IMG/VR virus record: IMGVR_UViG_3300045988_087627
Span: 1 to 44,613 of that record
DNA from: a virus
Length of the DNA: 44,613 bases
Direction: 5' to 3' (one strand)
Shown here: positions 42,348 to 42,790 of the stretch, one piece after another
Layout: every line of letters starts with the position of its first letter
Numbering within the stretch: position 1 is the stretch's first letter
Translations under genes and position numbers: made by a program
The notes under the pieces: generated by a model
The model's database searches: none
What the model was told of the DNA's origin: nothing
What the model saw: the letters and a program-made list of their open reading frames with translations, nothing else

Positions 42348-42391
42348 AAGGCAAACAAATGGCAAACAAATGGCAGTCCAAGGGCGAACCG
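42348..42391 (+). repeat. four 11-nt-phased direct repeats (AAGGCAAACAA / ATGGCAAACAA / ATGGCAGTCCA / AGGGCGAACCG)
   Basis: GGC occurs at 42350, 42361, 42372 and 42383. Confidence 0.8.
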
Positions 42392-42406
42392 AAAGGAGGG
42401 CAGAAC

Positions 42407-42643
42407 ATGGAGGAACGGAGCTACAAGGAACTGCGGCAGGAAGTCAAAAACGACCTGATACGGATGTACGGCGGCGCGGTGCTTTTAACGCTCGAACAGT
42501 GCATGAAAGTGTACGGTTTGAGCGACAGAGACGCTGCAAAGAAGGTTATTCGTGCGCCGAGAGTTCCCGGTGAAAGACGGGTAGTTTACTACATCGGCGA
42601 CGTTGCAAGCGACATTGCAAAGCGGCGTGTCGGGAACGTCTGA
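42407..42643 (+). CDS. small winged-HTH protein (excisionase/Cox/AlpA-like, tentative)
   Basis: ATG follows gaaaggagggcagaac. LLTLEQCMKVYGLSDRDAAKKVIRAPRVPGERRVVYYIGDVASDIAKR resembles Xis-type wHTH proteins. Confidence 0.6.
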   Translation: MEERSYKELRQEVKNDLIRMYGGAVLLTLEQCMKVYGLSDRDAAKKVIRAPRVPGERRVVYYIGDVASDIAKRRVGNV

Positions 42644-42691
42644 GGGCAAACCGAGGGCAGTCCGAGGGCAGTCAAAGGGCACACCGAGGCG
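42642..42691 (+). repeat. five 11-nt-phased direct repeats GAGGGCA (iteron-like)
   Basis: GAGGGCA at 42642, 42653 and 42664; AAGGGCA at 42675; GAGGCG at 42686. Confidence 0.85.
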
Positions 42692-42692
42692 T

Positions 42693-42790
42693 AAGAAAGA
42701 AAGTACCAAAGAAAGAAAAGAAGTATATATATATTCTCCCTACGGTCGAATATATATTAATTTAATTTCTAACAATGCAAGAAGAAAGAA
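42693..42790. other. A+T-rich tract with 10-bp inverted repeat (candidate DNA-unwinding element)
   Basis: atatatattc at 42727-36 and gaatatatat at 42748-57. A purine-rich aagaaagaaag tract flanks them. Confidence 0.5.

What the first reader, a model, noticed from the sequence alone, without database searches (positions are those of the whole stretch)
42348..42790. Two arrays of exactly 11-bp-phased GGCA direct repeats bracketing a small wHTH gene, followed by an AT-rich inverted repeat: origin-like or Cox/Xis-filament site
Upstream of the 78-aa wHTH gene (42407..42643) are four units, AAGGCAAACAA / ATGGCAAACAA / ATGGCAGTCCA / AGGGCGAACCG, with GGC at 42350, 42361, 42372 and 42383.

Starting at its stop codon are five more units: GAGGGCA at 42642, 42653 and 42664; AAGGGCA at 42675; GAGGCG at 42686. 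Both arrays keep an exact 11-nt period and share the sub-units GGCAAAC and GGCAGUCC.

They are followed directly by an A+T-rich tract (42693-42790) that contains ATATATATTC / GAATATATAT.

Direct repeats at one-helical-turn phasing next to an AT-rich element is the classic iteron-plus-DUE origin layout. It is also how small Cox/Xis-type wHTH proteins polymerise head-to-tail on DNA. These repeats differ from the attP arm repeats (GGTGACACAG), so this is not simply the excision site.
Basis: partly seen in the sequence, partly recalled or inferred. Interest (0 to 1): 0.65.

Follow-up and report, generated by a model that had tools for sequence, protein, structure and literature searches.

The report
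Phage replication origin enclosing small gene
The two 11-bp repeat arrays and the AT-rich hairpin region are most likely this gut phage's replication origin, read by the phage's own DnaD-like replication organiser and not by the small protein encoded between them: a familiar kind of element in an unusual layout.

Summary
Two same-strand arrays of 11-bp units (core GGGCA) bracket a 78-aa gene. The most AT-rich stretch of the genome and two hairpins follow.

About 90 related phage contigs keep this layout with 1-7 upstream and 3-9 downstream units; 303 of 326 unit spacings are exactly 11 bp.

The arrays come in two classes, RAGGGCAnWCM and RnYAACAsACM. The class does not follow the nested small protein: one 73-aa homologue sits in either class. 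It follows one residue in the predicted recognition helix of the phage's DnaD-like replisome organiser (window 3726-4463). Lys goes with GGGCA and Gln with YAACA.

In at least 18 unrelated phage lineages, GGGCA arrays with the same A-rich spacer lie inside K-type organiser genes, the classical origin position. The window's organiser is K-type and has no internal array. Its only iteron clusters are the two arrays in the finding.

Best reading: an origin outside the organiser gene, made of iterons, an unwinding region and hairpins, split around an Xis-like winged-helix gene.

The origin interpretation is supported. The Cox/Xis filament interpretation is not. This is a new variant of a known kind and of moderate interest.

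Still unexplained: the nested gene, and a hairpin with a conserved apex that is widespread in phages.

The parts
42347..42390 (+). Upstream iteron array: four 11-bp units, degenerate class G (AAAGGCAAACA / AATGGCAAACA / AATGGCAGTCC / AAGGGCGAACC), ending next to the RBS of the nested gene
   Evidence: Relatives have 1-7 units at this position.
42407..42643 (+). Nested 78-aa gene encoding a small helix-turn-helix protein with an Xis/PrtN/MerR-like predicted fold. It is probably not what reads the repeats; its role is unknown.
   Evidence: Only 20 cluster representatives in 1.84 billion proteins. A 73-aa distant homologue fills the same slot in other phages.
42642..42696 (+). Downstream iteron array: GAGGGCAAACC / GAGGGCAGTCC / GAGGGCAGTCA / AAGGGCACACC plus a degenerate GAGGCGTAAGA. 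It starts at the second base of the stop codon. This is the core array next to the unwinding region.
   Evidence: Relatives always have 3-9 units here.
42693..42789 (.). A-rich, purine-rich and AT-rich tract (AAGAAAGAAAG...), the candidate DNA unwinding element and the lowest-G+C stretch of the genome. It contains hairpin 1.
   Evidence: A-rich spacers follow the iterons inside organiser genes of unrelated phages; some are nearly identical to those of the window's relatives.
42727..42757 (+). Hairpin 1: stem ATATATATTC / GAATATATAT, loop TCCCTACGGTC
42790..42817 (+). Hairpin 2: stem ACTAACCC / GGGTTAGT, loop TCACTACCGTTC. The apex is conserved; the stem is arbitrary and co-varies.
3726..4463 (+). 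DnaD-like replisome organiser, the proposed reader of the iterons. Its N-terminal winged helix-turn-helix has recognition helix VKQVRTALGKLKKT (K68, 'K-type'). There is no internal iteron array.
41596..41624 (+). Near-consensus rightward early promoter (TTGACA-17-TATAGT). No terminator-like site was found on the + strand between it and the origin, so its transcript is expected to cross the origin. This is context for possible transcriptional activation.

Best explanation
The region 42347-42817 is the phage's origin of theta-type replication.

Proposed mechanism (inferred throughout):
1. The 11-bp units are iterons. Each is bound on one face of the helix by the N-terminal winged helix-turn-helix of the phage's DnaD-like replisome organiser (3726-4463).
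2. Lys68, the second residue of the organiser's recognition helix, reads the GGG of GGGCA. Phages with Gln at that position use YAACA iterons instead.
3. Organiser molecules stacked on the downstream array destabilise the adjoining A-rich tract, which is the least stable DNA in the genome.
4. The hairpins with a conserved apex then extrude, or are recognised once single-stranded, and the host helicase and primase are recruited through the organiser's C-terminal domain.
5. The upstream array is an auxiliary organiser-binding site. It varies from 1 to 7 units and overlaps the 5' leader of the nested gene.

The origin lies in the early rightward operon, so early transcription passes through it.

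What is shown: the anatomy, its conservation, the two repeat classes, their covariation with the organiser residue, and the same module inside organiser genes elsewhere.

What is inferred: binding, unwinding, initiation and the role of the hairpins.

The small Xis-like protein encoded between the arrays is a constant passenger of such external origins. It does not determine repeat specificity and its role is open.
For: 1. Conservation. The layout array / small gene / array / A-rich spacer / hairpin(s) is kept in 29+8 loci found through the 78-aa protein. It is also kept in all 55 loci found through an unrelated downstream membrane-protein gene. 303 of 326 spacings are exactly 11 bp.

2. Two classes. 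The units read R-A-G-G-G-C-A-N-W-C-M or R-N-Y-A-A-C-A-S-A-C-M. They differ essentially at positions 3-5 (position 2 is also less conserved in the second class), and both arrays of a phage are always the same class.

3. Class tracks the organiser. In the 55 independently ascertained loci: class G with Lys-type 4, class T with Gln-type 29, class T with Lys-type 0, class G with Gln-type 1. The one exception, L561, has an organiser carrying its own internal class-T array. Within one organiser type (87-90% identical), L293 is TVKQ with class G and five others are SVQQ with class T. The contigs carrying P0042 and P0049 are Gln-type with class T.

4. Independent lineages. Of 113 loci found only by the pattern GGGCA-N2-C-N3 repeated three times, 29 (18 lineages) have the array inside a DnaD-like organiser ORF, 136-192 nt after the helix-turn-helix. 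All 29 have Lys at that position although the search motif left it free.

5. Homology of the module. The organiser-internal G-class origins end in GGGCAACA followed by an A-rich spacer, as in the window's relatives. The spacers are alike in composition, not in sequence. Internal class-T arrays run into a spacer nearly identical to the external one of L037. L076 has class-T-like iterons, A-rich spacer and the same hairpin (loop TCACTAACGTTC) in the linker of its organiser gene.

6. The window's organiser is Lys-type. K68 lies in the recognition helix of a winged helix-turn-helix in the AlphaFold2 model, where pLDDT is 88-93. The organiser has no internal array, and the window's only iteron clusters are the two arrays.

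7. The AT minimum of the genome is adjacent to the downstream array.

8. Precedents. The SPP1 organiser gp38 binds direct repeats next to an AT-rich unwinding element, both inside gene 38 (oriL) and at a distant site (oriR) (PMC6316719). Lambda ori consists of iterons plus an AT-rich tract, with 4 or 6 iterons in different phages (PMC7466680).
Against: - There is no experimental evidence. Binding, unwinding and initiation are all inferred from comparison.
- The Lys-with-GGGCA association in unrelated phages was found starting from the arrays. The base rate of Lys at that position in the family is unknown. The matching search with TAACA found no organiser-internal arrays among its first 118 hits.
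- Many loci are close relatives, so the counts overstate the number of independent events.
- L561/L145 carries a class-G external module with a Gln-type organiser. I explain this as recent recombination, but that is not shown.
- The window's upstream units are degenerate.
- A small Xis-like gene sits inside every external origin seen. It probably matters in some way the model does not explain.
- No phage helicase, helicase loader or primase was identified, and there is no cluster of DnaA boxes nearby.
Confidence: 0.75

Rival explanations
1. The arrays are binding sites of the 78-aa winged-helix protein itself. It would polymerise head-to-tail as Cox, Apl, Xis, BldC or RdfS do, to autoregulate its gene and block or time read-through into the downstream recombination and replication genes.
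For: - Direct repeats one helical turn apart are the usual substrate of small RDF-type winged-helix proteins (PMC7498355; D29 Gp36, PMC12266134).
- The model of the 78-aa protein resembles PrtN, excisionase and MerR-like folds.
- The arrays abut its RBS and its stop codon.
- A small gene of this superfamily is present in every external module examined.
Against: - No alignment column separates class G from class T proteins. Residue 42 is D, K, N or E within class G alone.
- The 73-aa homologue keeps helix 3 (SYRTVQRYL) unchanged yet is bracketed by class G in L517 and by class T in about 25 loci.
- Homologues at 49-65% identity have no arrays.
- The same arrays occur inside organiser genes; no small nested gene lies within any of those internal arrays, though the rest of those phages was not screened for one.
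Confidence: 0.1
2. The arrays do bind the organiser but serve as control sites rather than the initiation site, for example titration, handcuffing or incompatibility as with incA of plasmid P1. Initiation would occur elsewhere.
For: - Two arrays flank a gene, as in P1 incC-repA-incA and F ori2-repE-incC (from memory).
- Copy number is very variable.
- L561 keeps a mismatched external module alongside an internal origin.
Against: - The downstream array is directly joined to the genome's AT minimum and to hairpins.
- It is homologous to the array-plus-spacer inside organiser genes, which is the classical origin position.
- No other iteron cluster exists in the window to act as the real origin.
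Confidence: 0.08
3. A plasmid-type partition centromere (ParR/parC-like or TubR/tubC-like), bound by the small protein.
For: Arrays of 11-12-bp direct repeats in two clusters are typical of parC and tubC (from memory).
Against: - No ParA, ParM or TubZ-like gene was found among the 40 ORFs scanned across the early, replication and late-left regions.
- The phage has a tyrosine integrase and an attP carrying a tRNA fragment, so it integrates.
- The class-covariation arguments above also apply.
Confidence: 0.02
4. An RNA-level element: the repeats and hairpins act in the early mRNA, as a protein sponge, a processing site or an antitermination site.
For: - All elements lie on the transcribed strand.
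- The hairpins have conserved loops and co-varying stems, like boxB-type sites.
- On the minus strand each hairpin is followed by a T-rich run.
Against: - An 11-nt period and covariation with a DNA-binding helix point to DNA.
- The same arrays are tolerated inside ORFs, where their period is out of step with codons.
- There is no Rfam match even at E<=1.
- One relative (L549) carries hairpin 2 with an inverted loop, which would destroy an RNA motif.
Confidence: 0.03

Closest known systems
Bacillus phage SPP1 oriL/oriR with the replisome organiser gp38 (G38P)
   Same: Direct repeats next to an AT-rich unwinding element are bound by the phage's replisome organiser. One copy lies inside the organiser gene and one at a distant site (PMC6316719). 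The window's organiser matches PHROG families annotated as DnaD-like helicase loader. Whether gp38 belongs to those families was not tested. The same repeat-and-spacer module is found inside organiser genes in other phages.
   Different: Here the only origin-like site lies outside the organiser gene. It is split into two arrays around a small gene and is followed by hairpins with a conserved apex. No phage helicase or helicase loader (gp40/gp39 equivalents) was identified. Sequence homology to gp38 and its boxes was not tested.
Lambdoid ori with the O protein
   Same: Iterons plus an AT-rich tract; the number of iterons varies between phages (4 or 6); the site lies in the early rightward transcript (PMC7466680).
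   Different: Lambda iterons are about 19 bp, internally symmetrical, bound by O dimers, and lie inside the O gene. Here the units are 11-bp asymmetric direct repeats, which suggests head-to-tail monomer binding. The initiator belongs to a different family.
RDF-type winged-helix filaments (186 Apl, P2 Cox, lambda Xis, RdfS, BldC, D29 Gp36)
   Same: Direct repeats spaced one helical turn apart, and a small protein of similar predicted fold encoded on the spot (PMC7498355, PMC12266134, PMC5859096).
   Different: The repeats are absent from attP and do not co-vary with the small protein. They co-vary with the organiser instead.
P1 oriR(incC)-repA-incA and F ori2-repE-incC plasmid replicons (from memory)
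   Same: Two same-sense iteron arrays bracket a gene, with one array next to the unwinding region.
   Different: In those replicons the bracketed gene encodes the initiator that binds the iterons. Here the initiator gene lies about 5.7 kb away across the circular junction, and the bracketed gene appears unrelated to iteron specificity.
pMV158 double-strand origin and ssoA single-strand origins of rolling-circle plasmids
   Same: 11-bp direct repeats and a hairpin whose loop carries ACTACG-like or TAACGT-like sequence. The pMV158 nick site TACTACG/AC is recalled from memory. The CS-6 element is TAGCGT (PMC4598088).
   Different: No HUH Rep gene was found among the ORFs scanned. CS-6 is not matched exactly and the RSB element is absent. 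The phage has a theta-type organiser, an SSB and a single-strand annealing protein.

Membership tests
Iteron-type phage origin bound by a replisome organiser or initiator (SPP1 oriL/oriR, lambda ori) | Tandem direct repeats (iterons) in one orientation at about one helical turn | tested here: met
   4 units upstream and 4 (+1 degenerate) downstream in the window. 303 of 326 spacings are 11 bp across relatives.
Iteron-type phage origin bound by a replisome organiser or initiator (SPP1 oriL/oriR, lambda ori) | AT-rich unwinding element directly next to the iterons | tested here: met
   the lowest G+C in the genome (26%) and among the least stable duplex begin at 42691, right after the downstream array.
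Iteron-type phage origin bound by a replisome organiser or initiator (SPP1 oriL/oriR, lambda ori) | The phage encodes a cognate initiator or organiser with a sequence-specific DNA-binding domain | tested here: met
   Gene 3726-4463 matches PHROG DnaD-like helicase-loader and replication-initiation families. The AlphaFold2 model of its N-domain is a winged helix-turn-helix.
Iteron-type phage origin bound by a replisome organiser or initiator (SPP1 oriL/oriR, lambda ori) | The initiator binds the repeats | not testable with these tools
   Indirect support only. Lys or Gln in the recognition helix co-varies with GGGCA or YAACA units.
Iteron-type phage origin bound by a replisome organiser or initiator (SPP1 oriL/oriR, lambda ori) | Replication initiates here, or the fragment supports autonomous replication | not testable with these tools
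   Needs origin mapping or a plasmid replication assay.
Iteron-type phage origin bound by a replisome organiser or initiator (SPP1 oriL/oriR, lambda ori) | Origin embedded in the initiator gene (true of lambda ori and SPP1 oriL, not of SPP1 oriR) | tested here: not met
   No iteron array in 3726-4463. The module lies about 5.7 kb upstream across the circular junction.
RDF / Cox / Xis-type winged-helix filament site | Small protein with an Xis/MerR-like winged helix-turn-helix fold | tested here: inconclusive
   Model pLDDT 84.7. Viral-model hits to PrtN and excisionase at E 0.01-0.1, TM 0.56-0.61. PDB hits at E>0.6. No Pfam, PHROG or PDB sequence hit.
RDF / Cox / Xis-type winged-helix filament site | The same repeats are present at attP next to the integrase gene | tested here: not met
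   attP region 37365-37670 has GTGACACAG arm repeats and a tRNA fragment but no GGGCA array.
RDF / Cox / Xis-type winged-helix filament site | Repeat sequence matches the specificity of the small protein (covariation) | tested here: not met
   No discriminating residue. The 73-aa homologue, with an unchanged helix 3, occurs with either repeat class.
Partition centromere (ParR/parC, TubR/tubC) | A linked motor gene (ParA, ParM or TubZ) and an extrachromosomal lifestyle | tested here: not met
   None among 40 ORFs scanned. Integrase and attP are present.
Rolling-circle origins (pMV158 double-strand origin; ssoA) | HUH Rep gene; exact CS-6 (TAGCGT) and RSB elements | tested here: not met
   No Rep among the ORFs scanned. 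Loop sequences are TACCGT and TACGGT in the window, TAACGT in relatives. RSB was not seen when reading the region; no pattern search was run.

The most novel reading that the evidence does not exclude
External origins of this phage group are composite, portable modules with two further parts.

1. The nested Xis-like winged-helix gene may be a working part of the origin. It could act as a licensing or timing factor, or link prophage excision to replication start. It is present in every external origin seen and in none of the organiser-internal ones.

2. The hairpin with the conserved apex C-TC-AC-TAAC-GT-TC-G may be a general initiation signal of phage origins, read by a conserved host replication factor such as primase, helicase loader or PriA-like machinery. 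That would explain its presence in at least 10 unrelated phage lineages, including T4-like contigs.
Probability: 0.2. Interest if true: 0.65.

Novelty: new variant of a known kind. Interest (0 to 1): 0.45.

Why it matters
- It places the replication origin of a widespread family of uncultured human-gut temperate phages. Their host is probably in the Oscillospirales; the only genome hit was a fragment in an Agathobaculum MAG.
- It gives a simple, testable rule: Lys or Gln at one recognition-helix position of DnaD-like replisome organisers pairs with GGGCA or YAACA 11-bp iterons. The rule could be used to annotate origins in many phage genomes, to predict replication incompatibility between co-resident phages, and to build origin-plus-organiser cassettes as vectors for gut Firmicutes that are hard to manipulate.
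- It shows that an origin module can sit either inside the organiser gene or outside it around a small gene. This is a clear example of modular origin shuffling.
- If the nested gene or the widespread hairpin turns out to have a defined role in initiation, that would add a new component to the standard picture of phage origins.

Tried and rejected
- **Small protein as the repeat reader.** I first thought residue 41/42 of the 78-aa protein tracked the repeat class. I dropped this because residue 42 is D, K, N or E within class G, and the 73-aa homologue pairs with both classes.
- **Xis acting at attP.** There are no cognate repeats there.
- **Partition system.** No motor gene was found.
- **Packaging (pac) site.** The small and large terminase genes are at 12385-14359, far away.
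- **Known RNA family.** No Rfam match at gathering thresholds or at E<=1. No tRNA genes.
- **Intrinsic terminators on the + strand.** The hairpins have 11-12-nt loops and no T-run on that strand.
- **DnaA-box cluster at the origin.** None found.
- **Firmicute primase CTA start site in the loop.** CTA is not invariant: the loop is TCACTCCGTTC in L045 and L048.
- **ssoA or pMV158-type origin.** Only a loose resemblance.
- **Arrays linked to the 209-aa ORF.** Its homologues in MT835513 and MT835520 have no arrays.
- **Coding repeats.** An 11-bp period shifts the reading frame, and array lengths vary in steps that are not multiples of 3.
- **Searches that led nowhere:**
  - the exact TAACA x3 pattern search gave only chance hits outside the family;
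  - the genome-contig scan gave one fragmentary hit;
  - The search for related loci on the wide alignment A2 failed in genome contigs;
  - a literature search for the loop sequence returned only Zika primers.
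Full report
**1. What is there**

The window is a complete temperate siphovirus-like genome. Its two ends overlap within a coding 27-bp repeat. Its main landmarks are:
- a tyrosine integrase at 37671-38882 (-) beside an attP that carries a tRNA fragment and GTGACACAG arm repeats;
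- a CI-like and a Cro-like gene driven by divergent consensus (12/12 leftward, 11/12 rightward) promoters at 41525-41553 and 41596-41624;
- across the junction, a recombination and replication module: Gam-like, Erf-like, NinB, HNH, SSB, a DnaD-like replisome organiser at 3726-4463, and RusA.

The finding lies in the early rightward operon, between cro and that module.

- four 11-bp units upstream of the 78-aa ORF 42407-42643;
- four good units and one degenerate unit starting at its stop codon;
- an A-rich, AT-rich tract holding the perfect inverted repeat ATATATATTC / GAATATATAT.

Tandem Repeats Finder reports both arrays with period 11. Chains of four GGCA at 11-bp spacing occurred in 0 of 300 dinucleotide-preserving shuffles. 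The 100 bp from 42691 are the most AT-rich of the whole genome, at 26% G+C against 54.8% overall.

**2. Conservation**

The 78-aa protein matches no Pfam, PHROG or PDB sequence. It belongs to a tiny family: 20 cluster representatives among 1.84 billion proteins.

The IMG/VR viral contig collection holds 37 loci that encode relatives at 49-99% identity. In every locus whose protein is at least 71% identical, the gene is bracketed by same-sense 11-bp arrays. There are 1-7 units upstream and 3-9 downstream, and 303 of 326 spacings are exactly 11 bp. More distant homologues, at 49-65%, have no flanking arrays.

The arrays fall into two classes:
- class G: R-A-G-G-G-C-A-N-W-C-M (the window and its close relatives);
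- class T: R-N-Y-A-A-C-A-S-A-C-M.

The classes differ essentially at positions 3-5; position 2 is also less conserved in class T. Both arrays of any one phage are always of the same class.

**3. Who reads the repeats**

My first idea was that the nested protein does, because its helix-turn-helix region differs between classes. That idea failed:
- proteins about 88% identical sit in different classes (P0042 against P0046);
- no alignment column separates the classes;
- residue 42 is D, K, N or E within class G alone.

I then collected 55 loci through an unrelated neighbour, the small membrane-protein gene downstream of the hairpins. This was decisive. Every locus has the same layout. The nested gene is either the 78-aa family or a 73-aa distant homologue (hhalign probability 84%, E 7e-6). 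That 73-aa protein keeps helix 3 (SYRTVQRYL) unchanged, yet it is bracketed by class G in L517 and by class T in about 25 loci.

The class follows the DnaD-like organiser encoded 5-7 kb downstream. Organisers with GLTVKQVRTAL go with class G. Those with GLSVQQVRTAL or GMSVQNVRTAI go with class T.

| Array class | Organiser residue | Loci |
|---|---|---|
| G | Lys | 4 |
| T | Gln | 29 |
| T | Lys | 0 |
| G | Gln | 1 |

The single exception, L561, has an organiser that carries its own internal class-T array.

Further points agree:
- Within one organiser type (87-90% identical), the Lys form pairs with class G and the Gln form with class T.
- The contigs carrying P0042 and P0049 have Gln-type organisers and class-T arrays.
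- An AlphaFold2 model of the window's organiser N-domain is a winged helix-turn-helix. K68 is the second residue of its recognition helix, which spans residues 67-80 with pLDDT about 90.

**4. The same module inside organiser genes**

I searched IMG/VR for three GGGCA cores at 11-bp spacing. Of the 113 loci returned, 29 (18 lineages, otherwise unrelated) have the array inside a DnaD-like organiser ORF, 136-192 nt after the helix-turn-helix. All 29 have Lys at the equivalent position, although my search motif left that position free.

These internal arrays end in GGGCAACA and run into an A-rich spacer, as in the window's relatives. For the G-class lineages the spacers are alike in composition, not sequence.

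Organisers of a third sequence type, all Gln-type, carry internal YAACA arrays. Their spacer (GAAGAAAGCAAGAAAGC...) is nearly identical to an external one, that of L037.

In L076 and its relatives, class-T-like iterons, an A-rich spacer and the very same hairpin (loop TCACTAACGTTC) all sit in the linker of the organiser gene.

An origin inside the initiator gene is the textbook arrangement. SPP1 oriL lies within gene 38, and a second, external oriR is also bound by gp38 (PMC6316719). Lambda ori lies within the O gene (PMC7466680).

The window's organiser has no internal array. The only iteron clusters in 44.6 kb are the two arrays of the finding.

**5. The hairpins**

Within the family I found nine stem variants. 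All are perfect 6-11-bp Watson-Crick stems with unrelated sequences, such as CTCTCTC/GAGAGAG, CTAACCC/GGGTTAG and ATATATATTC/GAATATATAT. L029 and L030 differ by a compensatory CCC/GGG to CAC/GTG change. All variants surround a conserved apex, TC-(A/C)C-T(A/C)(A/C)C-G(T/G)-TC.

Folding suggests this structure: a closing C-G pair, a TC/TC internal loop, a 2-bp mini-stem (AC/GT or CC/GG) and a loop of 3-4 nt.

On 18 variants, 95% of cells are paired. There are 59 cells with changes on both sides, against 19.9 +/- 3.7 in shuffles (0 of 500 shuffles reach the observed value). Only 22-40% are paired when the partners are slid. The variants from outside the family were picked because they had stems, so that part of the test is circular.

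An exact search for the loop with its closing pair returned at least 10 unrelated lineages with perfect stems. Chance would give about 0.1. They include origin-like contexts (L076; L130, where the hairpin is embedded in AGAAGCTA repeats) and T4-like contigs next to T-runs. I do not know what reads this loop.

**6. Interpretation**

The best-supported reading is an external replication origin with three parts:
- iterons for the phage's own Lys-type organiser;
- an adjoining unwinding tract;
- apex-conserved hairpins.

It is split around a small Xis-like gene and lies in the path of early transcription.

Binding, melting and initiation are inferred, not shown. I put this reading at about 0.75.

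The Cox/Xis filament reading is disfavoured (about 0.1). A control-iteron role without initiation (about 0.08), an RNA-level role (about 0.03) and a centromere (about 0.02) are less likely still.

**7. Comparison and novelty**

In kind, this is an iteron-plus-unwinding-element phage origin of the SPP1 or lambda sort. It differs in five ways:
- it lies outside the organiser gene;
- it is bipartite around a nested gene;
- its units are 11-bp asymmetric direct repeats;
- it comes in two interchangeable specificity classes tied to one Lys/Gln position;
- it carries a hairpin whose apex is conserved well beyond this phage group.

I rate it a new variant of a known kind, of moderate interest.

Noticed in passing
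window 42215-42345 and 43215-43560: Long non-coding (GCANN)n pentamer arrays on the + strand. 25 of 47 GCA-to-GCA steps are 5 nt, with spacing peaks at 26, 31 and 36 nt, so the period is about 5.2 nt or half a helical turn. T is scarce (34 of 346 bases). Length varies widely (about 165-395 bp) among close relatives, and the arrays occur only in phages with the window's organiser type. They give only weak matches to the iteron weight matrix. Function unknown.
   Followed up: partly
L056, L060/L075, L082, L113/L120, L122/L127/L163/L168, L130, L140, L143, L151 (IMG/VR loci): The hairpin with loop TCACTAACGTTC and an arbitrary perfect stem occurs in at least 10 unrelated phage lineages. These include T4-like contigs, where it follows a second hairpin (GATGAAC-TAC-GTTCATC) and precedes a T-run. 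In L130 it sits inside AGAAGCTA direct repeats. It looks like a widespread, undescribed phage DNA or RNA motif.
   Followed up: partly
L549, about 590-620 nt into the 620-nt stretch upstream of the membrane-protein gene: Hairpin 2 has its loop inverted (GAACGTAGTGA, the reverse complement of TCACTACGTTC) between unchanged stems. This suggests a flip by recombination within the palindromic stem.
   Followed up: no
window 44219-44613 continuing into 1-257: The window ends overlap, so the contig is circular. The 27-bp tandem repeats at both ends are coding: 9-aa repeats (TNTGNRSAA) in a gene whose counterpart at this position in relatives is annotated DUF7666. Many related contigs end near this point, probably because assemblies break at these repeats.
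   Followed up: partly
window 42055-42189 (-): A 44-aa ORF on the minus strand with a strong RBS, lying inside the rightward early operon and conserved in relatives. An extended -10-like TGATAAACT lies upstream in the GCA-rich region. Possibly a leftward, establishment-type transcript.
   Followed up: no
window 43590-44219 (+): A 209-aa ORF with no Pfam or PHROG match. It is conserved at about 64-73% DNA identity in human-faecal phage records MT835513, MT835520 and MT839334. In MT835513 it follows a Cro-like gene directly; in MT835520 it follows a small membrane ORF further down the early operon.
   Followed up: partly
window 37365-37670: The attP region has paired GTGACACAG arm-type repeats on both sides and a 3' tRNA-like fragment (GGGGATTCGAACCCC) as the probable core. 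ARAGORN finds no complete tRNA.
   Followed up: partly
window 25821-25838: Two tandem DnaA-box-like 9-mers (TTATCCACA GTATCCACA) in the late region. Window-wide, the number of DnaA-box matches is not above chance.
   Followed up: no
window 21893-22346: Runs of 9-bp and 18-bp repeats (CAGGGCGAA and similar) inside the 631-aa ORF 21485-23380, consistent with collagen-like Gly-X-Y repeats in a tail or fibre protein.
   Followed up: no
L561 / L145: A natural recombinant. Its Gln-type organiser has an internal class-T origin, yet it also carries an external class-G module around the 73-aa gene. It either has two origins of different specificity or keeps an orphan origin.
   Followed up: partly
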